A DNA stretch of 64,000 bases from Candidatus Nomurabacteria bacterium (GTDB taxonomy: Bacteria; Patescibacteriota; Saccharimonadia; Saccharimonadales; HK-STAS-PATE-42). The number at the start of each line of letters is the position of its first letter. Position 1 is the stretch's first letter. Positions 30,836 to 48,870 of the stretch are shown here, one piece after another. The DNA lies in contig CP060233.1 in assembly GCA_023898665.1 (NCBI GenBank), forward strand, positions 420,368-484,367, read 5' to 3'. The position numbers were made by a program, and so were the translations under genes. The notes beneath the pieces were generated by a model. The model did no database searches, was not told where the DNA came from, and worked only from the letters and a program-made list of their open reading frames with translations.

Positions 30836-30842
30836 CATATAA

Positions 30843-31406: not shown

Positions 31407-31414
31407 TTTTATTG

Positions 31415-31819: not shown

Positions 31820-31825
31820 ATTTAA

Positions 31826-31998: not shown

Positions 31999-32118
31999 AC
32001 ATAAAGCTCACTTTTTATTAAATTAAATAAGCTAAATAGGCTTACCGGATAATACTCCTTCTCTAAGAACTTATTAGTGATAAATTCTAAAAGTAAGATC
32101 CAATAAATACTATACTAA

Positions 32119-32553
32119 TTAATCTTCTAAGTCTGCAAGTTCTTGACGAGTATTTTTGACAAAATCAGACTCTTTTGTTGGTTCTTCCTCTGTTAAAGCC
32201 TGATCCTCTGACTGAGAGTTTTCCACTATTTTTGTTCTTCTGGAGGCATACTGACTATAATCTTGTTCTTGGACTTCTTCTCTTGTTGAGTTTGAGCCTC
32301 CATCTGTATCAGCAATTTTTAAGTTATAGTGAGCACTATTTTTAATCCCTAATGATCTTAAAAGTGTTCTTATACTTTCGGCAATGGCTCCTCGTTTGCC
32401 AATAACTCTGCCTAAGTCTGCTGGATTTACGTAAAGGGTTAATAATACTCCTCTCTCATCCACTACGCGCTCTACTTTAACGTCAGCCTCATTATCTACT
32501 AAGCTTTTTGCTATGTATTCTACAAATTGTTGGTCGATTGTAATTTCACTCAT
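32119..32553 (-). CDS. KH-domain RNA-binding protein (YlqC/UPF0109-like) with acidic C-terminal extension
   Basis: VGRVIGKRGAIAESIRTLL is a KH GXXG motif. The gene lies directly downstream of rpsP, as in many bacteria. There is an extra tail of about 60 aa. Confidence 0.75.
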   Translation of the reverse strand: MSEITIDQQFVEYIAKSLVDNEADVKVERVVDERGVLLTLYVNPADLGRVIGKRGAIAESIRTLLRSLGIKNSAHYNLKIADTDGGSNSTREEVQEQDYSQYASRRTKIVENSQSEDQALTEEEPTKESDFVKNTRQELADLED

Positions 32554-32617
32554 ATGGTCTCTTGCTGTCTTTTTGGGACTCTTTAAGGTTTACTCTAGAG
32601 TTTAGTTTAGCCTATTT

Positions 32618-33064
32618 TTAGGCTTCTGTGGAAGTCTCTTCTGTATCTTGATTAGATTCTGGAGCATCTTGAGCTGTTGCTTCACTTGATTCTTCACTCA
32701 CTTCAGGTGTTTCTTTTGACTCTGTAGGAGCTTCATCGGAAATCTCCTCTTTTTGTTGATTTTTTCTTAATTTTTCAACGTTACGAGTTTTACCTTCTTT
32801 TTTAGTTGCATCAGCAACCCATTTTGGTAGTTTAACTTTTTCTTTTTTTAACAACTGAGCAACTCTTTCTGATGGCTGAGCACCATTATCTACAAATTTT
32901 TGTGCTAGATCTTTATCTATCACTAATTCTTTTGTATGTGGATTATAGTTGCCTAATCGAGCTACTACTTTTTCTTTTGTTGGGTGAGTTCTTTTATCCT
33001 GAACTACTATTCTGTATTGAGCTAAGCCTTTACGGCCTCTTCTTTGCAGTCTAATTACTAACAT
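32618..33064 (-). CDS. rpsP: 30S ribosomal protein S16 with long C-terminal extension
   Basis: MLVIRLQRRGRKGLAQYRIVVQD matches the S16 N-terminus. The protein is 148 aa versus about 80-90 aa typical, and the tail is K/E-rich. Confidence 0.9.
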   Translation of the reverse strand: MLVIRLQRRGRKGLAQYRIVVQDKRTHPTKEKVVARLGNYNPHTKELVIDKDLAQKFVDNGAQPSERVAQLLKKEKVKLPKWVADATKKEGKTRNVEKLRKNQQKEEISDEAPTESKETPEVSEESSEATAQDAPESNQDTEETSTEA

Positions 33065-33213
33065 TAATTATTGATGTGCTTAAATTTACTTGTTTCTATA
33101 TCCCATGGCTTTTATGAGAAACCATTATTGCAGGATGAGGATTAATGTTGATTATACATTACACACCCCCTCCCCGTAAAGTGTGTTAAAATCTATCCAG
33201 AGGATGTAGAAGT

Positions 33214-33717
33214 ATGAGAGAAATAGATTATTTATCTTTAGGAGCTGTACTAGGTGGATCTTTTTATATTGGGAATAATAACGAAAAACATTCTATATAT
33301 GAATTAGTAGCTTCAATGTTCGGTGAGGAATATGAAAAAATATTTAATCTTACATATTCACCTGTAACATATAAAAGACCAGAGGGCGATAATAGTACAG
33401 TACCTAATGGGATCATTCTTTTAGGGGCTAAAGAACAATTAGAAAGTGGACTCGAAAAAATTGTGAGATTTGAGATAGGCTGGCATGCGAATGGAATGAT
33501 TGTTGAACAAGAGGGCGTCACCCAAAATGAGATCAATGTAGAGGATGGGTTAGGAAAAGGAATAAAAATAGAAAAAACCAAGATAGTTACTGAAATTGAA
33601 TTTCCACCCACAAACTCAGGTGCAGCAGAATATCTAGGTAAACTAGCCCAAGTATTTTTTGATACATACGCTCACTGGGTAAACGATGGTGATTCGTGGT
33701 CTCCTAGAAATAGCTAA
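33214..33717 (+). CDS. hypothetical protein
   Basis: 167-aa ORF with no family recognised. It is longer than the antisense ORF 33264..33611. Confidence 0.4.
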   Translation: MREIDYLSLGAVLGGSFYIGNNNEKHSIYELVASMFGEEYEKIFNLTYSPVTYKRPEGDNSTVPNGIILLGAKEQLESGLEKIVRFEIGWHANGMIVEQEGVTQNEINVEDGLGKGIKIEKTKIVTEIEFPPTNSGAAEYLGKLAQVFFDTYAHWVNDGDSWSPRNS

Positions 33718-33969
33718 ATTTTTGTATGAGTAGACCCAATTAGAAATTTAGTGAAAAATAGAATTATTATAAGATCCCATACTTGAGCTTTTTTAAGAAA
33801 CATTTGAGCCGGATTTTTTTAGACTTAGGCTTTACTGGATGTATTATTCCTCATGAAAATGACTATACTTGGATTAATGAGCTTCGTATCATGAGATAAC
33901 GGGATTCAAATAGTCTCATGTGTATAAAAAGATTGACACTAGGACGGTCTTTAGTCGCTACAGAGGTTT

Positions 33970-35108
33970 CTAATTATCTCTTGGTGTATTTGATATAAAA
34001 TCTTGAATTTGTTTGATAAATTCTTCTTTACTAAACTTCTGGGCTTGAGCTCTGACTCGTTCTGGTTTAAACTTAAATTCTCCTGCTTCAAATCGTTCTA
34101 ATGCGGCCACAAGAGCTTCCGCAGATTGTTCTTTAAAGAAGACCCCTGACTCTGATGAGATGTAATCTCTTGCTCCTCCTTTTTTTAGCGCAATAACTGG
34201 AGTTCCTGCAGCCATACATTCAATAGCAGATATTCCATAATCTTCTTCTTGCGGGAAGATCATGGCTTTAAATGTTCCTAACAGCTCATTTTTTTCTGTA
34301 TCATCAACGTCTGTTCTAAATTTAATTTTTTCATGTCCTGCGGCTAATTCTTGAAGTTTTGAATGCTCAGATCCGTTACCAATAAGGGTAAGCTCTAAAT
34401 TAAGCTTAATACAGGCTTTAATAGCTAAATCTGCACGTTTATATGCTACTTGAGCCCCAAATACAACGTAGCCTGCTCTATTTTTAGTTTCAGGATTTAA
34501 TTTAATCAAGTGTGTATCTGTTGGCGGATAAATGACAGTCGACTCTCTTTTGTAGTATTTTTCTATTCTTTGTTGGACTTTTTTTGATATAGCTATGAAT
34601 TCAGTAACTTTTTGTGCACCTAAATAATCAAACTTTTTCATTATCCATACAAATGGCGGAATTATTGGTTTGATTAGAATATTTAATTTTCCGAAGCCGG
34701 GGTCTTTTTTATAGTCTTTATAATGTGACCAGTAGTATCTAGTTGGGGTAAAACAGTAGCAAATGTGCCTTGTGTCTTCTCCTCCTCTGACCTGTTTGGC
34801 ATCCGAGCTGGTGTCAGAAATTATTATGTCATATTTTTTTTAAGTTCAGTGATCTAAATGCAAAAACTCTAATCACTGGGAATAGTTGATGAAAGTTCCT
34901 AAGCTTTTTTGGTAATTTTTGGAGCCAAGTAGTTTTAATCTGTTTTTTGTATTTATCAAATTCTGGGAGTTTATCTTGTTCAAACACAGACGTATAGATA
35001 TCTGCTTGAGGAAAAGCCTCTTTCAGCAAGGAGAACTCTTTCACCTCCTCTCATGTTGGTTAGCCAGTCATGAACTAGAGCAATTTTAGGTTCTTTTTTT
35101 GTTTGCAT
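33970..35108 (-). pseudogene. GT4-family glycosyltransferase, disrupted by two +1 frameshifts
   Basis: From ATG 35108 the reading MQTKKEPKIALVHDWLTNMRGGERVL shifts frame near 35025-35035 into ...LLKEAFPQADIYTSVF... It shifts again in a T8 run (34834-34841) into ...YDIIISDTSS...MKKFDYLGAQ and the C-terminal GT1-fold domain (ORF 33970..34641). Confidence 0.65.
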
Positions 35109-35350
35109 ATAGTTTAAGTTTAGCAAACTATTTATTGTCCATGAGCTATAGCAGAATCAAGACTTTCTCTTAGGTATTTTTTATAGTATGTCTAGCAGGT
35201 GATTCATTTTCGTCATGTTTAACCCAGACCCAGTCACCATTTTCAGCTTTTATCCTTATATCAGTTTTAGTAACTCCAGAGTGACATATTAGAAGTTCTG
35301 AGTGTGAAGTTGTTGTTGCTAAGCCTATAAAAGTTAATAATTATCCCGTA

Positions 35351-36859
35351 TTACTCGCCAGATCTTTTTAAAACTACGCCAATTGTTTTAAATAGAATTT
35401 TTATGTCTAGCCAAATACTCCAGTTCTGAATGTAGTAAACGTCAAGTTTTACTCTATCCTCATAACTTAAGTTGCTGCGTCCTGATACTTGCCACAAACC
35501 TGTAATGCCAGGCTTTACGCTCAAGAACTTATCTCGAGAGGTTTTGTATCTAGTTAGCTCCTCCTTAGTTATGGCGCGTGGACCTATTAAGCTTAATTTG
35601 CCTTGCAGGACATTTATGAGTTGTGGGAGCTCATCCAAACTAGTTCTTCTAAGGAACTTACCGAGCGGAGTTATCCTTGGGTCATCTTTAAGTTTTTGGG
35701 TTGTTTCCCATTCGTGGAGTAAGTCTTCTCTGCCCATCTCTTTAAATACCTGTTCATTTGTCTTTTTACCTCCCGTACAGTACTTCCAATACATACTCCT
35801 AAATTTGTAGATATAGAAAGATTTACCAAAACGAGTTACTCTAGCATGTTTATAAAATACTGGACCTCTAAAATCGCTAAGCTTAACTAATAGTGCTAAG
35901 AAAAGCACTGGGAGGAACGTAATTATGAGGAGGGCTAGGCTTAAGAACATATCAAATAAGCGCTTTAAAACTGTGTTCCAGCCAACAAGTGGGGTTATAT
36001 GGACATCAAGGCTTGGCACTCCAAAGAAGAGGTCTGTAGTAGTCTTGACTCCGTATAAAGATGAGTTTGAAGGAATCAGTTTATAGCGAGCATGGGCGGA
36101 TTCTACTGCTGATGTTAGTAGGTAATTTTTTTCATCATCTAGGACTTCGGTTTGTACAATTAAATCTACGTGGCGACCAGATATTCTACCTAATGCATTA
36201 TTAAAGTTTTTTATTAAATATTTTTTGTCTGGCGTAAATTCTCTTATTTGGCCGTGTCTTAATTCAGGCATCCAAATTCCTTCAAGCCTATACTCATTGT
36301 TTTTTTTGCTGGTTAAATTTTCATAAATTTTTGGAGCGATGTCACCATTACCTATTATTAAGACCCTAGTTAAGCCTTTACCTGATTTTGCAGCAATAAA
36401 CTTGATAAATCTTAATATTAATCTTCCTAGCCACAACAAACTTAAGCTTAAGCCAAAGGCATATACCGGAACTAGGCGAGCTGGGAATATTGGGCGATCA
36501 AGGGCGAAATCTAGTGTTATTAAAGCCATTATACCTATTGCGGACGTAAGGATTAAGCCTGCAAATTCTTTAAGGAGTTTGTGGTAAAAACTTCTTTTAT
36601 AAAGGCCTATGAGCGCCATTAGACCTAACCAAAAAGGTAATATTGAAACGTAAATTAATGCATAGCTTTTTGCTGAAATTGGTGTAACTATTGGCCTTGG
36701 ATCGATTTGTACCCTTAAGATATACGCCACTGTAAAAGCAGCTAGAATTGCTAGAGCATCACTCAAGATTAAACTTAGGTTATATAAAAGTTGGAATTTT
36801 TGGCGCATATGCCTATTTACTGCACTTTGCTCCCGGATCAAGTCCGGAAATGCGAACAC
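35351..36859 (-). CDS. polyprenyl-phosphate sugar phosphotransferase (WbaP/bacterial sugar transferase family)
   Basis: 502 aa. Multi-TM N-terminus, Rossmann-like linker, and C-terminal KFRSM...DELPQLINVLQGKLSLIGPR...PGITGLWQVSGR. Confidence 0.85.
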   Translation of the reverse strand: MFAFPDLIREQSAVNRHMRQKFQLLYNLSLILSDALAILAAFTVAYILRVQIDPRPIVTPISAKSYALIYVSILPFWLGLMALIGLYKRSFYHKLLKEFAGLILTSAIGIMALITLDFALDRPIFPARLVPVYAFGLSLSLLWLGRLILRFIKFIAAKSGKGLTRVLIIGNGDIAPKIYENLTSKKNNEYRLEGIWMPELRHGQIREFTPDKKYLIKNFNNALGRISGRHVDLIVQTEVLDDEKNYLLTSAVESAHARYKLIPSNSSLYGVKTTTDLFFGVPSLDVHITPLVGWNTVLKRLFDMFLSLALLIITFLPVLFLALLVKLSDFRGPVFYKHARVTRFGKSFYIYKFRSMYWKYCTGGKKTNEQVFKEMGREDLLHEWETTQKLKDDPRITPLGKFLRRTSLDELPQLINVLQGKLSLIGPRAITKEELTRYKTSRDKFLSVKPGITGLWQVSGRSNLSYEDRVKLDVYYIQNWSIWLDIKILFKTIGVVLKRSGE

Positions 36860-36953
36860 TTCATGTTCTTGATTGTACCATTTTTAAACCGCTTATGATA
36901 TTGCTTTTTGACTACATTAGTGTTATATTAAGCTTAGATTAAAGAAGAAATAT

Positions 36954-37748
36954 ATGAGTGAGTTCTACTCTGCTGTAGCAAAAATTACTGGTGATACATT
37001 TGTTTTAGGAGATCCATCAGAACCCGCAAGACTAGCACAAGAGCTAATTGAGTTAAAGAATGAATTACTAGGTCCTCTCGTAGTGTGTGTCGGTGGTGGT
37101 GCCGGCAATAGAGGTAGGGATGTCACTCCATACGGTATAGAGAGACTTAAAGCAGACGAGGATGGGATGGTTGCTTCCGTATTAAACGCCTCAACATTAA
37201 TGGATGCACTTGGCGAAAGAGCGCTAGGATTTACAGGTGTTCCACAGTATGTTTTAGAGCAACATGTAAAGAGTGAAAAAGATTCAGCTAGAAAAGCTGC
37301 CATAGCTTTAGCTATTGTAAATCTTATTCATGAAACAGAATTAAGGGCTCTAGAAAAGATAATAGACCGCAATGTGCCTCAGGATATATTAGTAGCAGGC
37401 GGAGGTATTGGTAGAGGACATGTCTCCACCGACTTTGGTGCTGCCCTTTTTGCTAGAGATCTGGTAGCACCTGATAAACCAACAGCTTTGCTTAAAGGAT
37501 CTGGTATAGATGGCGTTTACTCTGGTGACCCAAGAACAGATAGCTCTGCTACATTTTTACCCCATGTCAGCTATGATGATGCAATGCAGAAAGGTTTTAA
37601 AGTTGTTGATCTATCCGCTTGGCCAATTTTAAAAGATGGTAATGTGACCACAGTAGTATACAGAGATGCTCCTGGAAACATGCCTAGAGCCTTAAGAAGA
37701 GAAATCGGAAGTAGAGTAGATAATACACCAACAAAATTATCAGCCTAG
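36954..37748 (+). CDS. amino-acid-kinase-fold protein, divergent UMP kinase (PyrH)-like
   Basis: AKITGDTF, VVCVGGGAGNRGRD, VAGGGIGRGHVSTDFGAAL and GIDGVYSGDPR parallel the PyrH motifs (LKLSGE, VVGGGN..RG, GGTGNP..TTD.AA, VDGVY..DP). There is an insertion of about 40 aa. GC is elevated (53% in 37081-37140). Confidence 0.5.
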   Translation: MSEFYSAVAKITGDTFVLGDPSEPARLAQELIELKNELLGPLVVCVGGGAGNRGRDVTPYGIERLKADEDGMVASVLNASTLMDALGERALGFTGVPQYVLEQHVKSEKDSARKAAIALAIVNLIHETELRALEKIIDRNVPQDILVAGGGIGRGHVSTDFGAALFARDLVAPDKPTALLKGSGIDGVYSGDPRTDSSATFLPHVSYDDAMQKGFKVVDLSAWPILKDGNVTTVVYRDAPGNMPRALRREIGSRVDNTPTKLSA

Positions 37749-37773
37749 CCAATTCTGCTAAACTTAAGCTTAG

Positions 37774-39075
37774 ATGCTTAAGAGATATTTATATAAGTTT
37801 AAGGAGCTAGAACTTCGAGAGAAGATTCTAGTTCTTTTTGTTTTTAGTATTCCTTTTGAAAGAATCCCAAGTTTAGATGTTGGTGGGATAACCTTAAAGT
37901 TAAGTTTATTTCTAGGTACTGCATTAATTTTTATTAACTTAAAAGATATAAAGCTTAATTCTAATAAATTGCTTGAAAAGAAGTTATTGATTCTGCCTGC
38001 TCTACTTCTTGTGTATTCTTTACTTTCAATTTTATGGGCTCAGGATAGCCCTGCTTGGTTAAAGGCTAACTTGAACTTAGGTTTTGTTGTTGCAATATTT
38101 TATAGCTTAAGCTTAAGTTCTAAAAAGAATTTACAATTAATCTTAAACACTATTTTTGCCTCTACTTTAGTTGTAATCGGTTTTGGATTCTTCCAATGGT
38201 TTGGTGATTTGGTTGGTTTGCCTGCTGACCTAACTGGAATTAGAGAGCAATATGATGCAATCCGACTTGGTTTGCCAAGGATGCACTCTGTTTTGTTAGA
38301 GCCACTTTATTTTAGTTTGTTTTTACTGTTGCCTCTTGGATTGAGCTTAGCTGACAGAAAGAATGATTTGTTTAAAAGTTTTTATTTTAGGCTTGGGTTT
38401 ACCTCTTTAATTTACTTATCAATTTTATTAAGCTTAGCCCGAGGAGCAATTGTCGCAAGCGCAGTAATGGGTCTGGTCGCATTCTTTTATAATTTCTCAG
38501 AGCTTAAGAAGCTGTTTAATGTGGATATAATTACTAGATTATGTGCGGCGGCTTTAGTTATCATCTTAGTTTTTATTGGAGCAGTGAGTTTACTTGGCAA
38601 AAAAGGTATTGATGAGGACAATAACTATTCTAAAGGAATTGGGACTATTACAGGACATCTAAAATCAATCAGGCCATGGGGAAATGAAAAAGATGCAAAA
38701 GATGAGAACTCCTTAAACTCGCGCGACGAGGCAAGGAGTGAGGCTTTAAACTTAATAAAGCGAGATTTAAGAACGGATTTATTTGGAGTTGGCGCTGGGC
38801 AATATGGTGCTAATTTGGATCCCAAACAGGATTCTAATGCCACAAGTAATTTTGTAGGTTTAGATGTTTGGGTTCAATTTGGTTTAGTGGGTTTAGCAAT
38901 TCTAACTTTTTTTGGTTTAAGTTTAGTGTTTGGAGCTAAGCTTAATAAACCCATATCTATCGGATTAGTTTTGTATCTTATTGGATTTGCAATCCAGAGT
39001 ATTACTTTTGGCCAGCTAGCAATATTACACTTATGGGTTGGGATGGCGCTGCTGACTTTAGTTAATAACGATTAA
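37774..39075 (+). CDS. O-antigen ligase/polymerase-like (Wzy_C family) polytopic membrane protein
   Basis: 433 aa with about 10 TM helices. SLARGAIVAS is followed by an extracytoplasmic loop, typical of the Wzy_C/O-antigen ligase family. Confidence 0.6.
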   Translation: MLKRYLYKFKELELREKILVLFVFSIPFERIPSLDVGGITLKLSLFLGTALIFINLKDIKLNSNKLLEKKLLILPALLLVYSLLSILWAQDSPAWLKANLNLGFVVAIFYSLSLSSKKNLQLILNTIFASTLVVIGFGFFQWFGDLVGLPADLTGIREQYDAIRLGLPRMHSVLLEPLYFSLFLLLPLGLSLADRKNDLFKSFYFRLGFTSLIYLSILLSLARGAIVASAVMGLVAFFYNFSELKKLFNVDIITRLCAAALVIILVFIGAVSLLGKKGIDEDNNYSKGIGTITGHLKSIRPWGNEKDAKDENSLNSRDEARSEALNLIKRDLRTDLFGVGAGQYGANLDPKQDSNATSNFVGLDVWVQFGLVGLAILTFFGLSLVFGAKLNKPISIGLVLYLIGFAIQSITFGQLAILHLWVGMALLTLVNND

Positions 39076-40907
39076 TTTAGGTAGCCTTCGGCTTGCTTGT
39101 TAAACATCTCAGCATAAAGCTTAGACTTCTTCATTAACTCTTTGTGAGTTCCTTGTTCTAAGATTTTGCCTTTTTCTAAAACTACAATTCTTTGGGCTCT
39201 TTTTACTGTTGAGAAGCGATGTGAGATGATTAGTGCAGTTTTATTACCGTAGTGAGCAAAGATGTTATTAAAGATCTCATACTCAGCATTGGCATCAACT
39301 GCCGCCGTTGGTTCATCAAGAATTAAGATGTTAGAGTTTCTGTAGAATGCTCTGGCTAGTGCTACACGTTGCCACTGACCTCCACTCGGCTCGACCCCTT
39401 CTTCAAATGAATTATCTAAAATTGTGTTAATTCCTTTTGGTAATTTCTTTAGAATTGGCTTGAGGTCTGCGAGTTCTACAGCCCTATCAAGCTCTTGTTT
39501 TGTTGGCTTTTTATTGACTCGACCCAGTTCTATATTAGTTTGGATATCAAATGGGTATCTATTGAAATCTTGGAATAGAACTCCAATTTGACGCCAGTAG
39601 CTGTCAAGATCTACATCTTTGATATTTACTCCATTGACTAAGATCTCCCCTTCAGTTACATCATAAAGCCTAAGTAGGAGCTTAATGATGGTCGTCTTCC
39701 CTGCTCCGTTTTCACCCACAAGTGCAATGTGCTCACCTGGATTAATGGTTAAGTTTAGGTTATCAAGAATCTTTTCTTTTAGGTTCGATCGATATGCAAA
39801 TGAAACGTTTTTAAACTCTATCAGTGGTATATTATCTTTATTAAGCTTAACTGAATCTGATTTAGTTTCAATTTGGGGCTTAGAATCATAAATTGCGTAA
39901 AAGTCTCTAGCGTAAAGAACTAACTCACCAGATCTAGAAATGATAGAGGAGAGATTTCGCATCGATGAGCTGAATTGATTAAGAATTCCTGTGTAGAATG
40001 TAAAGTTTGCGATGCTTATTATTCCTGATACAGTTTTTGAAATTAGATAAATTGTTAAGCCCAGGAATGTTCCTTCATAAACTAGATGTGAGAAAGATTC
40101 TATACCTAAAGTGGACTTTGAGGCTTTAGCCTGTGCTTTGCCAAATTCTTCAATATTTTTTGCAGCAACTCCGTGTAATAGTCTATTCTTTAAACCATAT
40201 AATTTTATCTCTATAAGGTTCTTCTCATTATAAAATAGACCTACTGTTTTTTGGTGCCTATGGAATGCATCACCCTTAACTGCCCAGATCCCCCACTCTA
40301 GCTTAGATCTCTTGAGTTCTGTATACATTCTTGGGATGCTTGCGAGTGCAATTACTAGCGCCATCCAGGGGCCTGCAGAAAAGATCGCTCCAACAATTAG
40401 CGCCATTTTTAGAAGGTTGTAGTACGTATATACAAATTGGTCACCTATATCTCCCAATGCCCAACCCCCTTTTCTATTAACTTTGTTCAATAGTTTTTGG
40501 TTATCTCTATCTTCAAAAAAGTCAGTGTCTAGATTTGCTTTAGCTTCATTAAAGCTAATGGTGAACCATTGGTCCCATTTAATAAATACAATCCGGTCTA
40601 AAAGATTTTGCAAACCTGCGGCTATATTCACAACTAAAAGAAAAAGGGCAGAAATAATCGCATAACTGTAGAGATTGGATGTTGCACCTCCAGCACTGAC
40701 GGATTTTACAACTTCACCTACTACAAGAGATCCGTAATAGGTTGCAAGAACTGTTGAAGCTACCTCGATTGTTGAGAAGAACAAACGACCAATAAGGTTC
40801 CATTTGTCAATCTGCCAATTGGTTTTAACAACTCGGCCCACTATCTTGAAGTAGGTCTTTAAATCAAGTTCTCTTTCTTTTTTTAATTTAGATATTATTT
40901 TTTTCAT
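39072..40907 (-). CDS. ABC transporter, fused permease/ATP-binding protein (MsbA-like exporter)
   Basis: 611 aa. Six-TM exporter domain plus Walker A GENGAGKTT, signature SGGQWQR and Walker B ILILDEPT. Confidence 0.85.
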   Translation of the reverse strand: MKKIISKLKKERELDLKTYFKIVGRVVKTNWQIDKWNLIGRLFFSTIEVASTVLATYYGSLVVGEVVKSVSAGGATSNLYSYAIISALFLLVVNIAAGLQNLLDRIVFIKWDQWFTISFNEAKANLDTDFFEDRDNQKLLNKVNRKGGWALGDIGDQFVYTYYNLLKMALIVGAIFSAGPWMALVIALASIPRMYTELKRSKLEWGIWAVKGDAFHRHQKTVGLFYNEKNLIEIKLYGLKNRLLHGVAAKNIEEFGKAQAKASKSTLGIESFSHLVYEGTFLGLTIYLISKTVSGIISIANFTFYTGILNQFSSSMRNLSSIISRSGELVLYARDFYAIYDSKPQIETKSDSVKLNKDNIPLIEFKNVSFAYRSNLKEKILDNLNLTINPGEHIALVGENGAGKTTIIKLLLRLYDVTEGEILVNGVNIKDVDLDSYWRQIGVLFQDFNRYPFDIQTNIELGRVNKKPTKQELDRAVELADLKPILKKLPKGINTILDNSFEEGVEPSGGQWQRVALARAFYRNSNILILDEPTAAVDANAEYEIFNNIFAHYGNKTALIISHRFSTVKRAQRIVVLEKGKILEQGTHKELMKKSKLYAEMFNKQAEGYLN

Positions 40908-41086
40908 AATGTATTGTTTATGCTTATTAAGTTTAGTTTTTATTTAGCTGAATAGCTAGTTCTTGTGGTAGAATACTAAGTACTAAATAGTTAATAGTCC
41001 CAGTGTATTCTGGGGTTTTTACTCAAAATGGAGTAATATACTTTAACTAACTAAAATTGGCAAAATCATATTATATTTAAGCTTTA

Positions 41087-41813
41087 ATGCAATCTGATCA
41101 TATTATAGCATATAATATACCCCGACATGTAGGATTAATCTTAGATGGTAACCGCAGATGGGCTAAAGAAAACGGTTTTAGCAGTACTCTGCAGGGTCAT
41201 AAGGCCGGTTATGATAATCTAAAAAACTTAGCAGATTATGCTTTTAGCAGGGTATTAGAAATGTATCTGCATATGTTTTTAGTACTGAAAACTGGAACAG
41301 AAGTAAAGAAGAGAGGTTGATTATTTGATGAAGTTACTTCTCAGAATGATGAAACGCGATATCAAGGAGCTTCATAGCAAAGGAATTAAAGTTCTATGGT
41401 TAGGTACTAAAGTGGGTCTAAAGCCTGATATTATTGAGGCGATTGAGGGTGCAATTAGGAAGACTGAGAAGAATATTAAAGGAACTCTTGCTTTTTGCTT
41501 AAATTATGGGGGCCACCAAGAGCTTGCCGACGCTACAGCAAAGATTATTTCTGAAGGGTATAAAGCAGAGGATATTACTCCTGAGCTAATTGAAAAGCAT
41601 TTATATGCACCGGAGCTTGGTCCGGTAGATTTAATGATCAGAACAAGTGGCGAGCAACGCTTAAGCGGTTTCAACTTATGGAGATGTAGTTACTCTGAGC
41701 TAATCTTTACAGATAAAAAATGGCCAGCTTTTACTAACGAAGACTTAGATTTAGCATTAGCAGAGTTTGCCAAAAGAAGTCGTAGATTTGGTGGAGATGA
41801 ACAACCCGCTTAA
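41087..41813 (+). pseudogene. uppS: undecaprenyl-diphosphate synthase (UppS), split over three reading frames
   Basis: Frame 1 reads PRHVGLILDGNRRWA...GHKAGYDNLKNLADYAFS. Frame 2 reads GIRNVSAYVFSTENWNRSKEE. Frame 3 reads VDYLMKLL...YGG...IRTSGEQRLSGFNLW...RRFGG. The breaks are at the GGG run 41250-41252 and at GAGAG 41311-41315. Confidence 0.8.
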
Positions 41814-41850
41814 GCTTAGCTTGACCTTGAGCTTTTGATATACTATAAGT

Positions 41851-42102
41851 ATGACAAAAGAAGTTATACATCAAGGTAAAGCAGAGGTTATTAGACCCGA
41901 TGAAAACGGAATTCCTGAAAGAAAAGAAGTCCCAATAGGAGCTGTTATAAAAGTAGGCAACAAAATTGTTTCAGCAACAAAGAGAAGAGAGCTTGGTGCT
42001 GTTGATCAAGATCCTGAGCCAGACATTACAATAACAAGAACTCCATCCACCAGATGGGGGTTACCTGAAGATCCTCCAGGTAGAGCAAGATTATTGGGCT
42101 AG
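41851..42102 (+). CDS. small hypothetical protein
   Basis: 83-aa ORF with no family recognised. Confidence 0.35.
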   Translation: MTKEVIHQGKAEVIRPDENGIPERKEVPIGAVIKVGNKIVSATKRRELGAVDQDPEPDITITRTPSTRWGLPEDPPGRARLLG

Positions 42103-42163
42103 AAAAAGCTAAGCTTAAACTGTTAAACTTAAGAGTACAAATTAAGGAGATTTTTGATTATTT

Positions 42164-42506: not shown

Positions 42507-43112
42507 ATGTTACCTAAAGCACTTGACGACTTAATTGAGGCTCTTGGCTCGCTACCAGGAGTTGGACCTAGAACTGCTGAAAGATATGCCTGGTCTTTAT
42601 TCAAGCGTCCTGAGTCTAAGCTTAAGGATCTCACAGAGTCTATATCATCTTTACACGAGCGAGTTAAGCTTTGCCCTAAAACTTTTGCGCTCATTTCTGA
42701 GGATGAAGATCTTAGTGAGCTATATTCTGATAATCGGAGAGATAAGAAAGTAGTTATGGTTGTTGAACAACCATTTGACATTATTCCGCTTGAGAAGACC
42801 TCTAAGTTTAATGGGACTTATCATGTTTTAGGTGGTGCGATCAGCCCAATTGACGGTATTAATGCTAGTGATCTTAAAATTGCAGAGTTAATCCAAAGAG
42901 TTAAAGATGACGAAGTTGAAGAATTAATCTTAGCTACTAATGCAAATATTGAAGGTGAAAGTACTGCACTTTATATCCAAAAGATACTAGAAGAAGCTGG
43001 AGAAAAAGTTAAAATGACTCGTTTGGCTAGGGGTCTACCAACTGGAGTTGACCTAGCTTACGCAGATCAAATTACTCTATCTCACGCTTTTGATGGTAGA
43101 AAAGAGTTTTAG
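42507..43112 (+). CDS. recR: recombination protein RecR (zinc-finger cysteines missing)
   Basis: HhH motif LPGVGPRTAERYAW, and Toprim VVEQPFDI...TNANIEGESTALYI. Only one Cys remains where the C4 finger normally sits. Confidence 0.85.
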   Translation: MLPKALDDLIEALGSLPGVGPRTAERYAWSLFKRPESKLKDLTESISSLHERVKLCPKTFALISEDEDLSELYSDNRRDKKVVMVVEQPFDIIPLEKTSKFNGTYHVLGGAISPIDGINASDLKIAELIQRVKDDEVEELILATNANIEGESTALYIQKILEEAGEKVKMTRLARGLPTGVDLAYADQITLSHAFDGRKEF

Positions 43113-43115
43113 TAT

Positions 43116-43766
43116 ATGAAAATTTGTTATATCTCGCTATTCCCAGAAGTTATTGAAGCTTACAACAATGTTGGGATGATGCGTAAAGCTCAAGAAATGG
43201 GCTCAGTTGAGTTTATCTACTTAAATCTTAGAGACTTTGGGCTTGGACCTCGTAAACAGGTTGATGACACTCCATACGGTGGAGGGGATGGCATGGTCTT
43301 AAAACCAGAGCCGATTGCAGAAGCAATTGCTAAAGCAAAAGAGTTAGTAGGAGATAATGCTATGGTCATTCTACCTACCCCAAGAGGAGTAGAGTTTACT
43401 CAAAATGATTCTAATAATTTGGCTGAACTTAATGAGAACTTGATTATATTTTGCTCAAGATACGAGGGCTATGATGAAAGGATTACTAAATTAGTTGATA
43501 GACAGTTCTTTATTGGTAGATATGTTTTAACAGGTGGAGAAATACCGGCAATGGTAATTTCTGATAGCATTATAAGATTACTTGATGGAGTCTTGGGTGG
43601 GGAGGAATCCGCAGTAAAAGAAAGCTTTCAGACAGATTTAAGTTTAATTGAGCATCCGCAATATACTAGACCAGAGATTTTTGAAGGGGAGAGTATCCCA
43701 GAAGTATTAAAAGGTGGGAATCATGCTGAGATTGAAAAATGGCGTCAAGAAAATTATATAACTTAG
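43116..43766 (+). CDS. trmD: tRNA (guanine37-N1)-methyltransferase TrmD
   Basis: DDTPYGGGDGMVLKPEP, CSRYEGYDERI, IGRYVLTGGE and NHAEIEKWR are TrmD signatures. Confidence 0.9.
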   Translation: MKICYISLFPEVIEAYNNVGMMRKAQEMGSVEFIYLNLRDFGLGPRKQVDDTPYGGGDGMVLKPEPIAEAIAKAKELVGDNAMVILPTPRGVEFTQNDSNNLAELNENLIIFCSRYEGYDERITKLVDRQFFIGRYVLTGGEIPAMVISDSIIRLLDGVLGGEESAVKESFQTDLSLIEHPQYTRPEIFEGESIPEVLKGGNHAEIEKWRQENYIT

Positions 43767-43767
43767 A

Positions 43768-44325
43768 TTAAGTTTTTTTTCTATTTTCAAGCTCAACTGC
43801 TGCCTCTACAATTAAGTCCCCGCATTCTTTGCGTTGTGCGTTGTCACAGATGTATGTTACCGTTGTTGTTGGTTTTTGTTTAGAAAGCTCAACTTCTTCT
43901 TCGGCCCTCATGCTACACGACAGACCACCAAAGCTATCAATACACTTTTGTCTCTGTGATGTTAGAACCCGGGTATGTGAACTAACAACAATCCCATTAA
44001 ATGTCGTTTTTGTACTCAGACATTCATATGTATTTGCAATCTAATTTTCTAGAATATCTCTTAGTCTAACTGCGCTTTCAGTTAGTCTCCCGCATCCTCG
44101 AGCACAAAATAATCCTGGAGAGACTGTCCTCTCATTTAGACTAACCTGCACCCAAGGCATTAAACTACATTCTTCACTGCTGCAATCACGTTTTTCATCC
44201 TCCACAAAAGCGCCAATACCAGCAACAGTTTCAGAACCAGACGGAGACGGGTAGTGGAATCTATTTCCACTTAACCCGTTTAATTGGCCAAGGATAGTTC
44301 TCCTGGTCGTTATTAAATTTGCCAT
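43768..44325 (-). pseudogene. Cys-rich hypothetical ORF interrupted by a single in-frame TAG (44041..44043)
   Basis: The 94-aa ORF 44041..44325 ends in TAG. The same frame stays open for another 90 codons (IANTYECLSTK...ELENRKKT) down to TAA at 43768..43770, with no usable start codon near its beginning. Confidence 0.45.
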
Positions 44326-44335
44326 AATGAGGCAA

Positions 44336-46576
44336 TTATACTAGACTTAACGGGGCATATTCAAGGTGGAGCTGTTTTGGTCCTGAGCTAAAGACTATTG
44401 TGGCCATCGGTTCACTAATATCCACTACTGTTCCAATACCGAATTTTGGATGAGAAACTTTTGAACCTTCTTTTAAGCTATTATTCGTCTCTGATTTTAC
44501 TTCTTGCTTATCAACAAAATTAGATGCCGAAAGTGTGTTGTTTACTGCTTCCGCTTCTTTAAAGATGTTATTTGCTCCATAACCCTGACCCTCTCCCAAG
44601 GTAGAGGAAGATCCAAATAAAATACTTGTTGGGGTTAAAGAGAAACCAGGAGCGACTTTAATAACTTGTTCATCTAAAAGTTCCGTTACAAAGCGTGAGG
44701 GTGGGTTGTTTTGGGGATTTCCGTATATGATGCGTCTTGTGGCATAAACGAGGTATAGAGCCTCTCTAGCGCGCGTCATAGCGACATACGCGAGTCTTCG
44801 CTCTTCTTCAAGTTCTTCTTGGTTTGTAGCAGATCTAGAGTGCGGGAACACGCCCTCTTCTAACCCGGCTATAAAGACCACAGGGAATTCCAGCCCTTTT
44901 GAGCCGTGAATAGTCATAAGAGTGACGCTATCGCCTGTTGAGCTTAATGAATCCAGATCTGAAACTAATGCGATGTCTTCTAAGAATGCTCCGAGATCAT
45001 TTGCACCTTGGGATGTGGCCACAGAGGCAAGTTCTCTTAAATTCTCCAAGCGCTCAATGCCTTGTGGGGTATTATCGTTGTAGAATTCATCAAGGTTGAA
45101 AAGAGAAATTACAGTCTGGATGATCTCTGCAACGCTAAACTTAAGCAAATCAGCACGTAGTTTTTCAATCTTAGAGTAAAAGTTTTTAGTAGCACTTAAA
45201 GCTTTAGAGCTTAACCCAGGGCATTCATCAATTAAGCATAGAGCGTGAGATAGTGAGCCTTGTTGAATTGCGAAGTTCTGTATTGCAAGAAGTGATTTTG
45301 CGCCGATTCCTCTGGCCGGGACGTTGATGATTCTATCAAAAGAGACTGAATCGTTTGGGTTATAGATTAATCTTAGGTAACTAATTAGATCTTTTACTTC
45401 TTTACGTTCATAGAATCTGATGCCTCCTACAATTTGGTAAGGTGTTCCTGTGCGCATAAATGCCTCCTCAAAAGTACGGGACTGAGCATTTGTGCGATAT
45501 AACACTACAAAATCCTTCCATTTACGGTCTTCATCCGCCATAAGGTCACGCATCTTGGTGATGATTATTTCAGCTTCATGATTTTCGGAACTAGCTTGCA
45601 GAAGTTCGACATCTTTGCCTGGGCCTTCATCCGTAAATAGCTCTTTAGAAGAGCGGGATGAGTTTTTAGTGATGATTTTATGGGCGGCATCTAGAATATT
45701 CTGGGTTGAGCGGTAGTTCTGCTCAAGCTTAATAACTTGTGCTCCTGGGAAGTCTTGCTCAAAGTTTAGAATTATCCGGTAGTCTGCGCCGCGCCAACTG
45801 TAAATACTTTGCCAATCATCTCCAACAACAAAGATATTACTCTTTTCATCTGTTAGGCATTTAAGGAGCTTATACTGGATTGGGTTTGTATCCTGGTATT
45901 CATCAACCAAAATGTGTTTAAAACGCGATTTGTAGGCTTCTCTGACCTCTTCTGAGTCAGTAAAGAGCTCTGCGGTCTTTAAGATTAAGTCATCGAAATC
46001 TAGAGCTCCAAGATCGGCCATTCTTTTTTTATAGATTGGCCAAGCTTCTGCTGTTAATCTTTCGGTTGGAGTTTTAGCGCTAAAGTCTAAATCATCTTGA
46101 GTTAAGCCATCGTTCTTCATTTTAGATATTAAGCTTAAGACTGGACGAGCTTGCTTGATGTCTTGTACTTTAAGATCATTTTTTAAGATCTGTTTAATTA
46201 GCTGCATGCGATCACCATCATCATAAATTACAAAATTAGATGGGATTCCGATGTGCTCGCCATCTCTGCGCAAGATTCTTACACAGATACTATGAAAAGT
46301 TCCTAAGTATGGGAGGGTGAAGTCTGTATTTTTTTCACCGTCTAAGCTCAAGTGAAGACTTTGCACGCGCTCGCGCATCTCTTTGGCGGCTTTGTTAGTA
46401 AAAGTAACCGCAAGTATTTGTGATGGATAAATTCCAGATCTAAGCAAATGCGCTATCCTATAGACTAATGTTTTGGTCTTACCCGAACCCGCTCCAGCAA
46501 GAACCAGCACTGGTCCATCCAGAGCTGTAGCTGCCTTATACTGAGCCGCATTAAGCTCTTGTAAAAAATCTGTCAT
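44336..46576 (-). CDS. uvrD: ATP-dependent DNA helicase UvrD/PcrA
   Basis: 746 aa. AGAGSGKT, VDEYQDTN, GDDWQSIYSWRGA, NYRST, VMTIHGSKGLEF-type (LMTIHGSKGLEF) and YVAMTRA. Confidence 0.9.
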   Translation of the reverse strand: MTDFLQELNAAQYKAATALDGPVLVLAGAGSGKTKTLVYRIAHLLRSGIYPSQILAVTFTNKAAKEMRERVQSLHLSLDGEKNTDFTLPYLGTFHSICVRILRRDGEHIGIPSNFVIYDDGDRMQLIKQILKNDLKVQDIKQARPVLSLISKMKNDGLTQDDLDFSAKTPTERLTAEAWPIYKKRMADLGALDFDDLILKTAELFTDSEEVREAYKSRFKHILVDEYQDTNPIQYKLLKCLTDEKSNIFVVGDDWQSIYSWRGADYRIILNFEQDFPGAQVIKLEQNYRSTQNILDAAHKIITKNSSRSSKELFTDEGPGKDVELLQASSENHEAEIIITKMRDLMADEDRKWKDFVVLYRTNAQSRTFEEAFMRTGTPYQIVGGIRFYERKEVKDLISYLRLIYNPNDSVSFDRIINVPARGIGAKSLLAIQNFAIQQGSLSHALCLIDECPGLSSKALSATKNFYSKIEKLRADLLKFSVAEIIQTVISLFNLDEFYNDNTPQGIERLENLRELASVATSQGANDLGAFLEDIALVSDLDSLSSTGDSVTLMTIHGSKGLEFPVVFIAGLEEGVFPHSRSATNQEELEEERRLAYVAMTRAREALYLVYATRRIIYGNPQNNPPSRFVTELLDEQVIKVAPGFSLTPTSILFGSSSTLGEGQGYGANNIFKEAEAVNNTLSASNFVDKQEVKSETNNSLKEGSKVSHPKFGIGTVVDISEPMATIVFSSGPKQLHLEYAPLSLV

Positions 46577-46681
46577 TTTATATCAGTAGAGAATTTGTTT
46601 TTATTATGATTAATTGTACCAGATAATATCCCGACAATTAATCTGGATATTTTTCTGGTAATTAAGTTCAAGCTTGTGGTA

Positions 46682-47065
46682 TTAGACTTTCTCTAAGATG
46701 ACTTGTATTTTTTCTACTACCTGTTTTGGGGTGCAATCAGCCTTGATTAAGAAGTCTACTATTAAGTCTGGAGTTCTAATTCTCTTCATTGCTTCTTCTT
46801 TACCTAGGTTAGTTAATATAACCACTGGAACTTTGACGCCCGCAGATTTAAACTGATCTAGGGTCTCTGGTCCATCTTGTACAGGCATCATAAGATCCAT
46901 CAAAACTATATCTGGTCCAAATTCTTTGACCATTTTAAAGCCGACAGCACCGTTCTCTGCAACCTCTACCTGATATCCTTCAGATTCAAATTTAAATCTG
47001 TACATCTCCGCGATCTCTTCTTGATCTTCGATAATTGCTACTTTTGTATCTTCTGGCTTTTTCAT
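46682..47065 (-). CDS. stand-alone response-regulator receiver domain (CheY-like)
   Basis: 127 aa. IIEDQ, phospho-acceptor LMDLMMP, ILTN and conserved K (FLIKA). There is no output domain and no kinase gene in the window. Confidence 0.8.
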   Translation of the reverse strand: MKKPEDTKVAIIEDQEEIAEMYRFKFESEGYQVEVAENGAVGFKMVKEFGPDIVLMDLMMPVQDGPETLDQFKSAGVKVPVVILTNLGKEEAMKRIRTPDLIVDFLIKADCTPKQVVEKIQVILEKV

Positions 47066-47130
47066 TTTGCTTGAACTTAAATTTTTATTTATAAAGATAA
47101 GCTTAACTGTTTAGTGACTACAAATCAAGT

Positions 47131-48405
47131 CTACCACCATCGTTTTGCCAACCAGAAACTGTAAGCACCAGCCCAACCGCCATATCTTGCGTTTGCATAA
47201 CTATTGCACCATCTTAATTGTGTAACTGGATTAGTTTGCCAATCTGAACCTGCAGAGGCCATCTTTGAGCCTGGTAAAGCTTGGCATAGTCCATACGCTC
47301 CTGAGCTTCGATTTCGTGCGGTGTAATTCCAGCCGCTTTCTTTTGAGATAATATGATCTACATAGCCCCACTGACTCTCTGGTATACTAGCAGCAGCTAA
47401 CCAGTCTCTGGATGATCCACTTACTTTAGAGGTTACAACCTTTCTTGCTCCGACTATTGTGGTTTGTTTAAGAGCTGGCTTAATAACTTCTTCATTTACA
47501 ACTGTTCTAGAAATCTCTTTGCCATTTATTTTTTTGATTTCATAAGTAACTCTTTTTTGACCAGTGTAACCAGCAGATTGTACTTGTCTATAACCTGTAT
47601 CTTTATTTACATCTTTAATTAGATCTTCTGGCATAGGAATTTCCTCATCGGAGACTAGAACTTCTCTGCTATCATTTTTTATTTCTACAGTAATCCCGTC
47701 AGTAATTGCCTGATCAGGACTTTGCAATAATATATCTCCCTCTTGTAGACTTAATGACTTTTCCTCTAAAAACTCTTTTACTGTCTTACTTTGAGTTCTT
47801 TGTTCGGTTACAGCGCCGTATAGATTAAGATTAACTTTATCTGCGCGGTCAACCTTTAATGTAAGGCCAGGTTTTAGATCTCCTGCAGATATGTCAGAAG
47901 GGACTATTTCGTGATTATCCTCAGGATTAAGCATAATGCCAGCCTCTTTTGTTATGCCTTCAGCAGTTTTTTGCGCAGTTTCGATTTCGACTTGAGCGCC
48001 CTTATCTTTAATTGTTACTGGAACCGATCTATACACATTAATTTTATAACCATCACTTATTTCAGTTTCAAGACCAGGCTCAACAATATCTTTATCACTT
48101 AGTTTAACTCCTGCTGCGTCAATGACTTCTTTAACAGTTTTTGAATTCCTGGCAATATTTAAGATCTGTCCGTCAACATATAATTGAGCCGTCGTATCAA
48201 AACCAGTTGCAAAAACTTTTCTACTTCCTAATGGTAGGGCCACTGCAAGGAGTAATAATACTAAGTATGATGTTCGTCTTATTGGGTGTTGTTTAACTTT
48301 TGTCTGATGATTATGGATACTAAAAATGCTCGTCATAAGGTGTTTTTGCACCAACTTCTTTAGTCTTGCTACCAAACTTATTGAGTTTAGAAATTCTTTA
48401 TACAC
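47131..48405 (-). CDS. cell-wall hydrolase: DUF348 repeats + G5 domain + C-terminal lysozyme/transglycosylase-like domain (RpfB/YabE-like architecture)
   Basis: 424 aa. N-terminal TM helix, repeated TV.E.L......L...D domains, G5-like GQKRVTYEIKKINGKE, and C-terminal ESGWN..A.N.SSGAYGLCQALPGSKM...W. Confidence 0.65.
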   Translation of the reverse strand: MYKEFLNSISLVARLKKLVQKHLMTSIFSIHNHQTKVKQHPIRRTSYLVLLLLAVALPLGSRKVFATGFDTTAQLYVDGQILNIARNSKTVKEVIDAAGVKLSDKDIVEPGLETEISDGYKINVYRSVPVTIKDKGAQVEIETAQKTAEGITKEAGIMLNPEDNHEIVPSDISAGDLKPGLTLKVDRADKVNLNLYGAVTEQRTQSKTVKEFLEEKSLSLQEGDILLQSPDQAITDGITVEIKNDSREVLVSDEEIPMPEDLIKDVNKDTGYRQVQSAGYTGQKRVTYEIKKINGKEISRTVVNEEVIKPALKQTTIVGARKVVTSKVSGSSRDWLAAASIPESQWGYVDHIISKESGWNYTARNRSSGAYGLCQALPGSKMASAGSDWQTNPVTQLRWCNSYANARYGGWAGAYSFWLAKRWW

Positions 48406-48870
48406 TCTAGTTTACTACCCTAATCTGCTAGATCTGATAGTAGTTAAGTATATCATTAAAGAAATTTCTCTCAAAAGTGGCAGTTTTACCTAAATAGGCC
48501 AAATTATTGGTCTAATACACACAGGTAACTATCAAAATCTTTGGTGTCTAACTTTCAGTTTAAGTATTCAACTTCAGCTTCTGCTTTTATTTGGCTATCT
48601 TCCTCCTGATATTAAAAAGCGAACGTTGTTAGTATATTTGGTCCTCGAACAAATCAAGGGCTAAATTGGATACTTAAGCTTAATCTAATAAAAGCGTTTC
48701 TCTCACAAAACCTTCACATAGATGCCTGAACAAAAATTATAATTTTCATTATAATTTGTTGGTTGCTTGATAATTTATACACGAATATATATTAAAAAAG
48801 CAAACTATTTTCCTTAAAATGATGCATAATTTACACGCCTTATACTGGTGCTACAATGTAAACAATTTGC

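What the first reader, a model, noticed from the sequence alone, without database searches (positions are those of the whole stretch)
41087..41813. uppS (undecaprenyl-diphosphate synthase) is split across three reading frames
The UppS sequence can be read continuously only by changing frame twice within 65 nt. One nucleotide is missing in the GGG run at 41250-41252 (AFSR|GIRN). Two extra nucleotides sit in GAGAG at 41311-41315 (SKEE|VDYLM). The shifts do not compensate, so the ORF track shows 77-aa and 162-aa pieces. Every catalytic motif is otherwise intact (DGNRRWA, ENWNR, RTSGEQRLSGF, RRFGG). UppS supplies the lipid carrier required by the intact WbaP-type transferase, the O-antigen ligase-like protein and peptidoglycan synthesis. 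The possibilities are assembly or basecalling error, very recent pseudogenisation in a host-dependent organism, or recoding.
Basis: seen in the sequence. Interest (0 to 1): 0.55.

Follow-up and report, generated by a model that had tools for sequence, protein, structure and literature searches.

The report
Frameshifted uppS, probably an assembly artefact
The gene for the enzyme that makes the bacterial cell-wall lipid carrier really is broken by two small insertion/deletion changes in this published genome, but the breaks are private to this one hybrid Nanopore/Illumina assembly and are most likely consensus errors, not biology.

Summary
uppS (41087-41813, +) reads in three frames because one G is missing from a GGGG run (41250-41252) and an extra AG sits at 41310-41315. 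Repairing both gives a 241-aa protein that passes TIGR00055 and is 93-99% identical to intact 241-aa orthologs.

The window comes from MAG HK-STAS-PATE-42, a 692,464-bp circular Saccharimonadales genome from Shatin activated sludge. It was built by per-bin Unicycler hybrid assembly of 86.7%-accurate PromethION reads plus Illumina reads.

Short-read contigs of near-identical strains (99.8-99.995%), including runs probably from the same project, carry intact uppS. Over about 35 kb compared, the window has only four indels. Two are in uppS and two are in a GT4 glycosyltransferase (33970-35107, -) that I found to be split in the same way. They sit in two ~1-kb patches that also hold most of the substitutions.

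No other public assembly carries these alleles. Recoding and phase variation are not supported.

One caveat: an independent MAG (HRV76405.1) has a different 1-nt deletion in uppS, seven bases downstream of the window's G run. A real loss-of-function polymorphism therefore remains possible (about one in three). Read pileups would settle it.

The parts
41087..41251 (+). uppS segment 1 (frame 0): codons 1-55, MQSD...DGNRRWA...DYAFSR
   Evidence: PF01255 positions 1-36; identical to intact orthologs except D9Y and V11I
41250..41252 (+). Lesion 1: GGG run where all relatives have GGGG (1-nt deletion, shifts to frame 2)
41251..41313 (+). uppS segment 2 (frame 2): GIRNVSAYVFSTENWNRSKEE, 21 codons that hold the conserved FSTENWxR motif; no substitution against the sister DNA
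41310..41315 (+). Lesion 2: AGAGAG where relatives have AGAG (2-nt AG insertion, shifts to frame 1)
41316..41813 (+). uppS segment 3 (frame 1): VDYLMKLL...RTSGEQRLSGF...RRFGGDEQPA plus stop; the mechanical 162-aa ORF starts at TTG 41325
   Evidence: PF01255 positions 62-219; DNA 100% identical to L001 and L002
41085..41119 (+). Cluster of four window-private substitutions at the 5' end of uppS (41085, 41111, 41117, 41119); same ~1-kb difference patch as the two indels, together with 42139
33970..35107 (-). Second broken gene: GT4 glycosyltransferase read in three frames. It has a 2-nt deletion (TG on the + strand, inside CATG) between 35025 and 35026, and a T7->T8 insertion at 34834-34841. The repaired protein is 378/379 identical to intact HRV76210.1.
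35351..36808 (-). Intact WbaP/EPS-type polyprenyl-phosphate glycosylphosphotransferase (uses the UppS product). It carries the window-private T347S change at 35821, which belongs to the GT4 difference patch.
37774..39075 (+). Intact protein named by NCBI as O-antigen ligase family; its ortholog in L084 has a weak Wzy_C hit

Best explanation
The two uppS frameshifts are most likely consensus errors in the deposited genome, and so are the two in the nearby GT4 glycosyltransferase. Shown: the window is MAG HK-STAS-PATE-42. It was built by recruiting Nanopore reads (86.7% accurate, >=70% similarity) and Illumina reads (>=80% similarity) to a bin, then running Unicycler hybrid assembly. Inferred: in two stretches of about 1 kb the final sequence came from a long-read bridge or from mixed-strain polishing, not from the clean short-read graph. 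That left a few substitutions and small indels, three of the four in simple-repeat contexts (G4, AGAG, A7). Under this reading the organism has an ordinary functional 241-aa UppS, a cis-prenyltransferase making undecaprenyl diphosphate for lipid II and for the WbaP-initiated glycan.
For: 1. Source and method. The 692,464-bp single circular contig matches HK-STAS-PATE-42 in the supplement of Liu et al. 2021. NCBI proteins USN97230-97238 come from that contig. The methods are given, and the paper's own mock benchmark leaves 0.2-1.8 indels per 100 kb.
2. Short-read contigs of near-identical strains carry intact genes. L002 (SRR12358675) and L001 have intact uppS. L169-L174, from several assemblies of several samples, have intact GT4.
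3. L083 (SRR12358676) is identical to the window over 18,692 nt apart from one mismatch, with no indel. The assembly is therefore Illumina-accurate elsewhere. Of 41 A/T runs >=7 and 58 G/C runs >=4 in the compared 32 kb, only one of each differs.
4. All four indels and 6 of the 8 substitutions against the SRR12358675/6 contigs lie in two patches, 34834-35821 and 41085-42139.
5. Window-private alleles from the patches (77-aa UppS piece, 223-aa GT4 piece, WbaP S347) are on record only from the NCBI MAG. The flanking proteins are also found in Logan, JGI or ENA assemblies.
6. Exact look-ups of the fragments and of single-lesion intermediates found nothing else.
7. Two frameshifts in each of two genes, at about 0.02-0.2% divergence and with no intergenic indel, is a poor fit to neutral decay (inference).
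Against: 1. An independent MAG (HRV76405.1 = P0244, on an ENA contig of 2,133 nt) encodes a 79-aa UppS fragment. It is reproduced exactly by deleting one A from the AAA run at uppS nt 174-176, seven bases downstream of the window's G run. Two unrelated errors that close together would be a striking coincidence.
2. The window also carries substitutions that look natural. ATA at codon 11 is shared with another Shatin lineage, so it may be a distinct real haplotype.
3. The GT4 patch lies where all sister strains are identical, so there is no obvious reason for a graph break there.
4. The 2-nt TG deletion is not in a repeat.
5. I could not see reads. I also could not verify that SRR12358675/6 belong to PRJNA648801.
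Confidence: 0.58

Rival explanations
1. The lesions are real and very recent loss-of-function alleles. A strain or subpopulation of this Saccharimonadales species has inactivated uppS and the GT4 gene in its surface-glycan locus. It would survive because an episymbiont can take polyprenyl phosphate from its host, because a second cis-prenyltransferase exists elsewhere in the genome, or because the mutants are short-lived. The lesions are slippage-type mutations.
For: A second MAG has a different -1 frameshift in the same short stretch of uppS, seven bases downstream of the window's G run. The window is a distinct haplotype with its own substitutions, some shared with another natural lineage. 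Both broken genes belong to one Und-P-dependent glycan locus at the edge of a strain-variable, recombining island. Three of the four indels are in short repeats, where replication slippage occurs. A Pol IV gene is present in the window.
Against: No short-read assembly anywhere carries these alleles, including runs that are 99.995% identical to the window. There are two hits in each gene but no intergenic indel at 0.02-0.2% divergence. There is no substitution in the out-of-frame segments. uppS is strongly conserved across all relatives, and by established knowledge it is essential for lipid II recycling in wall-bearing bacteria. The HRV allele rests on a single contig; another contig of that MAG has coverage of about 4.8.
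Confidence: 0.33
2. The gene is a phase-variable (contingency) locus. Short repeats in uppS and GT4 expand and contract to switch surface-glycan synthesis on and off.
For: Three of the four lesions change repeat length: G4->G3, (AG)2->(AG)3 and A7->A8. Glycosyltransferases are classic phase-variable genes (established knowledge).
Against: The tracts are far shorter than known contingency repeats, with A7 as the only borderline case. All sister contigs from the other assemblies and samples have the same in-frame tract lengths. The TG deletion is not in a repeat. Two non-compensating shifts per gene cannot be reversed by one slip. uppS is a housekeeping gene.
Confidence: 0.05
3. The protein is made by programmed recoding. 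The ribosome shifts frame twice (-1 at AGG-G, then +2 or -1 at GAG-AG) to produce full-length UppS from the shifted mRNA.
For: The full protein can be read by two shifts only 65 nt apart, and every motif is intact. A tRNA-Glu could in principle re-pair from GAG to the next GAG two bases on (read directly from the sequence).
Against: Strains 99.8% identical encode the protein in one frame, as do all relatives down to 79% identity, so the shifts are not conserved. There is no X_XXY_YYZ slippery heptamer at either site. Two independent inefficient events would give negligible yield. The GT4 gene shows the same pattern with unrelated sequence contexts.
Confidence: 0.01

Closest known systems
Bacterial undecaprenyl-diphosphate synthase (UppS; cis-prenyltransferase, PF01255 / TIGR00055; solved examples E. 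coli 1JP3, M. luteus 1F75)
   Same: The repaired 241-aa protein scores 224 bits on TIGR00055 (cutoff 109.55) and matches solved UPPS chains over residues 3-238 at E about 1e-48 to 1e-57. The DGNRRWA, FSTENWxR, RTSGEQRLSxF and RRFGG motifs are all present. Gene order is the same as in relatives.
   Different: As deposited, the reading frame is broken twice. The 21 codons carrying FSTENWNR are out of frame with both flanks, so no functional enzyme is encoded unless the sequence is wrong.
Residual indel errors in long-read or hybrid metagenome-assembled genomes
   Same: The lesions are small indels, mostly in short repeats. They are private to one ONT/Illumina hybrid assembly, clustered in short patches, and contradicted by short-read contigs of the same population.
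   Different: The assembly is otherwise almost free of indels, including at 41 long A/T runs. One of the four indels is not in a repeat. An independent assembly has a different lesion seven bases downstream of the window's G run.
Nascent pseudogenes in reduced-genome symbionts
   Same: The lesions are frameshifts with no other decay, in a host-dependent small-genome lineage (Saccharimonadales, 692 kb).
   Different: The target is a normally essential gene under strong purifying selection in all relatives. There are two hits per gene at near-zero divergence, and no population support in public short-read data.

Membership tests
cis-prenyltransferase / UppS (PF01255, TIGR00055) | Sequence match to the family model above the curated cutoff | tested here: met
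   Both fragments hit PF01255 (32.4 and 152 bits, cutoff 27). The repaired protein scores 224.3 bits on TIGR00055 against a cutoff of 109.55.
cis-prenyltransferase / UppS (PF01255, TIGR00055) | Conserved catalytic and substrate-binding motifs (DGNRRWA P-loop-like motif, FSTENWxR, RTSGExRxSxF, RRFGG) | tested here: met
   All are present and invariant in the alignment with 13 orthologs once the three frames are joined. The protein aligns with solved UPPS chains.
cis-prenyltransferase / UppS (PF01255, TIGR00055) | A single uninterrupted ORF of about 230-250 aa that encodes the whole fold | tested here: not met
   In the window the gene is split into 77-aa and 162-aa ORFs, with the FSTENWNR segment in a third frame. 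It is intact (241 aa) in all sister contigs.
cis-prenyltransferase / UppS (PF01255, TIGR00055) | Product chain length C55 and in vivo activity | not testable with these tools
   This needs an enzyme assay or complementation. None of the NCBIfam chain-length-specific equivalogs reached its cutoff.
Programmed ribosomal frameshift genes (e.g. prfB, dnaX type) | The shift site is conserved in orthologs | tested here: not met
   All orthologs, from 79% to 99% identity, are in one frame.
Programmed ribosomal frameshift genes (e.g. prfB, dnaX type) | A slippery sequence at the shift site | tested here: not met
   There is no X_XXY_YYZ heptamer or prfB-like CUU_UGA site at 41246-41256 or 41305-41318 (read directly).
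Phase-variable contingency loci | A long simple-sequence tract whose length varies among closely related genomes | tested here: not met
   The tracts are G4, (AG)2 and A7. Every sister contig has the same in-frame length.
Long-read or hybrid assembly consensus error | The assembly involved error-prone long reads | tested here: met
   HK-STAS-PATE-42 was built with Flye, then Unicycler v0.4.8-beta hybrid assembly, from PromethION reads at 86.7% accuracy.
Long-read or hybrid assembly consensus error | The variant is absent from short reads of the same sample | tested here: inconclusive
   Logan short-read contigs from SRR12358675/6 carry the intact alleles and are 99.995% identical to the window elsewhere. 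They are consensus contigs, not pileups, and their link to PRJNA648801 is inferred, not shown.

The most novel reading that the evidence does not exclude
The frameshifts are real, and uppS loss of function arises repeatedly in this activated-sludge Saccharimonadales species: three independent small indels within about 70 nt in two MAGs. That would mean an episymbiotic, wall-bearing bacterium can live without its own undecaprenyl-diphosphate synthase, presumably by taking the polyprenyl-phosphate carrier from its host, and that its surface-glycan locus (GT4 plus uppS) is being dismantled in some strains.
Probability: 0.12. Interest if true: 0.6.

Novelty: not a real feature. Interest (0 to 1): 0.17.

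Why it matters
If the lesions are artefacts, the value is practical. A "complete" circular CPR genome in GenBank carries at least four frameshift errors in 35 kb of checked sequence. Two genes of cell-envelope synthesis are annotated as fragments (USN97230, USN97231 and USN97236), which would mislead metabolic reconstructions about lipid-carrier and glycan synthesis in Saccharimonadales.

If the lesions are real, losing UppS in a bacterium that still builds a wall and a WbaP-initiated glycan would point to scavenging of the lipid carrier from the host. That would be a notable extension of CPR host dependence. The independent frameshift in a second MAG is the only reason to keep this possibility open.

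Tried and rejected
1. Exact look-ups of the 77-, 162- and 161-aa UppS fragments and the 223-aa GT4 fragment in the gene-position index found nothing on record.
2. A DNA pattern spanning both uppS sites and allowing either allele gave 0 matches in JGI metagenome contigs.
3. A protein-guided metagenome scan and a scan of GTDB species genomes found no relative above 88% with the region intact, apart from a contig-edge piece (L100), and no frameshifted copy.
4. P0062, a 161-aa C-terminal UppS that looked like a third frameshift case, is only a contig-edge truncation.
5. Other short UppS N-terminal fragments on long contigs in unrelated MAGs break at residues ~85-125, not 55-60, so there is no general hot spot.
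6. Exact look-ups of eight hypothetical single-lesion or background-swapped alleles found none on record.
7. I searched papers for the SRR accessions and found no hits. Arumugam et al. 2021 (PMC7966762) was checked as a possible source and rejected, because its Saccharimonadales contig is 848 kb.
8. Pfam annotation of the first 40 ORFs found no other split gene. The transketolase N and C halves are a normal two-subunit arrangement.
9. I could not test for a second cis-prenyltransferase, because only 64 kb of the 692-kb genome is available here.

Full report
**Observation.**
- Frame 0 runs from the ATG at 41087 to ...DYAFSR.
- Frame 2 then reads GIRNVSAYVFSTENWNRSKEE.
- Frame 1 reads VDYLMKLL... 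to the stop at 41811-41813.
- The mechanical ORFs are 77 aa (41087-41320) and 162 aa (41325-41813).
- Both pieces hit PF01255, at profile positions 1-36 and 62-219.
It scores 224 bits on TIGR00055 uppS (cutoff 109.55) and matches solved UPPS structures over nearly its whole length.

**Comparison with relatives.** A search of 5.8 billion proteins found intact 241-aa orthologs at 93-99% identity and many more down to 79%. In the alignment every motif is conserved and no ortholog has an indel at either junction.

Two contigs encoding the 99% ortholog have the same gene order: L001 (Logan SRR28385528) and L002 (SRR12358675). At the DNA level the window differs from them in uppS by the following:
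- one G missing from GGGG (window 41250-41252);
- an AG inserted in GAAGAG (41310-41315);
- four substitutions at 41085-41119.

Everything from 41316 to 42138 is identical. Over the whole 7.9 kb shared with L001, these are the only indels.

**A second broken gene.** While annotating the window I noticed a 223-aa Glycos_transf_1 ORF (33970-34641, -) followed by 700 nt with no ORF. Three-frame translation shows a complete GT4 glycosyltransferase split across three frames.
- The repaired protein is 378/379 identical to an intact 379-aa protein (HRV76210.1 = P0241).
- P0241 is present on seven contigs from several assemblies of several samples.
- Against six of these contigs the window has a T7->T8 insertion (34834-34841; an A run on the coding strand) and a 2-nt deletion between 35025 and 35026.
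- Five of the six contigs otherwise differ from the window by only one or two substitutions. The sixth (L170) is as close up to about 38 kb and about 10% divergent beyond.

So two genes of the same Und-P-dependent glycan locus each carry one 1-nt and one 2-nt indel of opposite sign, with net shifts of +1 and -1. The locus order is GT4, WbaP/EPS-type phosphoglycosyl transferase, an amino-acid-kinase-family (AA_kinase) protein, an O-antigen-ligase-family protein, an MsbA-like ABC transporter, then uppS.

**How good is the rest of the assembly?** L083 (Logan SRR12358676) matches window 42909-61600 over 18,692 nt with one mismatch and no indel. L169 (SRR12358675) matches 29127-39340 with two substitutions plus the two GT4 indels.

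The compared 32 kb contains 41 A/T runs of at least 7 and 58 G/C runs of at least 4. Only one of each differs. The assembly is therefore Illumina-accurate in general.

All four indels and 6 of the 8 substitutions against the SRR12358675/6 contigs fall into two patches of about 1 kb: 34834-35821 and 41085-42139.

**Source.** The 223-aa GT4 fragment and the 77-aa UppS fragment are NCBI proteins USN97230.1 and USN97236.1. Both come from a 692,464-bp contig labelled "MAG: Candidatus Nomurabacteria bacterium".

That length identifies MAG HK-STAS-PATE-42 of Liu et al. 2021 (Microbiome 9:205, PMC8518188): one circular contig, GTDB Saccharimonadales f__UBA7683, relative abundance 0.088. The assembly method was as follows:
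- The data were 267 Gb of PromethION reads at 86.7% accuracy and 514 Gb of Illumina reads.
- Flye was run first, followed by binning.
- Long reads were recruited at >=70% similarity and short reads at >=80%, so related strains were co-recruited.
- Unicycler v0.4.8-beta hybrid assembly was then run per bin.

The paper's own mock benchmark leaves 0.2-1.8 indels per 100 kb. Related strains at 90-94% identity occur in contigs that I infer to be from the same plant (L084-L088). A strain-variable island starts at about 38.1 kb.

**Support in other data.** Proteins flanking the patches are found with exactly the window's sequence in Logan, JGI or ENA assemblies. The patch-specific alleles (WbaP S347, the UppS fragment, the GT4 fragment) are on record only from the NCBI MAG. 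The fragments, single-lesion intermediates and the repaired window haplotype are not in a 15-billion-protein collection. Two metagenome scans found no frameshifted copy.

**The complication.** The 77-aa fragment clusters with a 79-aa protein, HRV76405.1 (P0244), from an independent third-party MAG on a 2,133-nt ENA contig.
- Its sequence is reproduced exactly by deleting one A from the AAA run at uppS nt 174-176 on the L001-type background.
- That deletion lies seven bases downstream of the window's G run, and the allele has no AG insertion.
- Another contig of that MAG is a SPAdes node with coverage of about 4.8.

A random Illumina consensus error there is unlikely. So either this species really carries uppS frameshift alleles in some populations, or there is an unexplained coincidence. 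Truncated UppS calls in other MAGs break elsewhere, and P0062 was only a contig-edge case. There is no general hot spot.

**Weighing the explanations.**
- **For an artefact:** the assembly route is error-prone. The differences cluster in patches and mix substitutions with indels, at 0.3-0.7% within a patch against about 0.01% outside. No short-read assembly supports them, including runs that appear to come from the same project. There are two hits in each of two genes but no intergenic indel. The out-of-frame segments show no decay. The gene is essential by established knowledge of lipid II and Und-P biology.
- **For real lesions:** the independent HRV allele exists. The window-private substitutions look natural, with ATA at codon 11 shared with another lineage. 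Both genes sit in a recombining surface-glycan locus.
- **Recoding is rejected.** The shifts are not conserved even at 99.8% identity, there is no slippery site, and two inefficient events would be needed.
- **Phase variation is rejected.** The tracts are too short and do not vary among sister contigs.

My estimates are: artefact 0.58, real recent loss of function 0.33, phase variation 0.05, recoding 0.01.

**Verdict.** The split is most probably not a biological feature but an error in a deposited hybrid MAG. There is a genuine, testable minority possibility of real loss-of-function alleles. Read pileups at four sites would decide it.

Noticed in passing
window 33970-35107 (-): A GT4 glycosyltransferase next to the WbaP-type gene is also split into three frames. 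It has a 2-nt deletion at 35025/35026 and a T7->T8 insertion at 34834-34841. It is intact (379 aa) on seven sister contigs.
   Followed up: yes
P0244 / HRV76405.1 (ENA contig of 2,133 nt; corresponds to window ~41260-41262): An independent MAG of the same species has a different uppS frameshift: one A lost from the AAA run seven bases downstream of the window's G run, giving a 79-aa product.
   Followed up: partly
window ~38100-42050: This is a strain-variable island. L170 is identical to the window up to ~38.0 kb and then ~10% divergent across the O-antigen-ligase-family and ABC transporter genes. Strains inferred to be from the Shatin time series are 90-94% identical over 37753-41825, and 41826-42042 (the start of the 83-aa ORF) does not align.
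   Followed up: partly
window 40242-40425 (ABC transporter, -): Ten substitutions against L001 all fall on third codon positions and are synonymous. This looks like a small recombination tract under purifying selection.
   Followed up: partly
window 36954-37748 (+): An AA_kinase-family protein sits inside the glycan locus and scores well below the UMP kinase cutoff (99.8 against 243.9 bits). In the P0004-type strains the same slot holds a 299-aa protein with a cytidylate-kinase domain.
   Followed up: no
window 2989-3951 and 3944-4792 (-): Transketolase is encoded as separate N-terminal and C-terminal subunit ORFs overlapping by 8 nt. This looks like the usual two-gene arrangement, not a frameshift.
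   Followed up: no
window 9243-10496 (-); 60580-61649 (+): A DNA polymerase IV (Y-family) gene is present (below the NCBIfam cutoffs), and LexA and RuvC genes lie at the far end of the window. The organism therefore has an SOS-type error-prone polymerase, which is relevant only if the indels are real.
   Followed up: no
whole window / source record: The GenBank organism label is 'Candidatus Nomurabacteria bacterium'. The authors' GTDB placement and all close relatives are Saccharimonadales (Saccharibacteria/TM7), family UBA7683.
   Followed up: partly
window 41851-42102 (+): An 83-aa ORF between uppS and ybaB has no Pfam or NCBIfam family. It is conserved in position in the relatives (78-85 aa) but is highly divergent between strains.
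   Followed up: no
window 48148: This is the only mismatch against L083 in 18.7 kb. It is non-synonymous (AGG Arg in the window, AGC Ser in the sister) and creates a CCTGG (Dcm-type) motif in the window.
   Followed up: no
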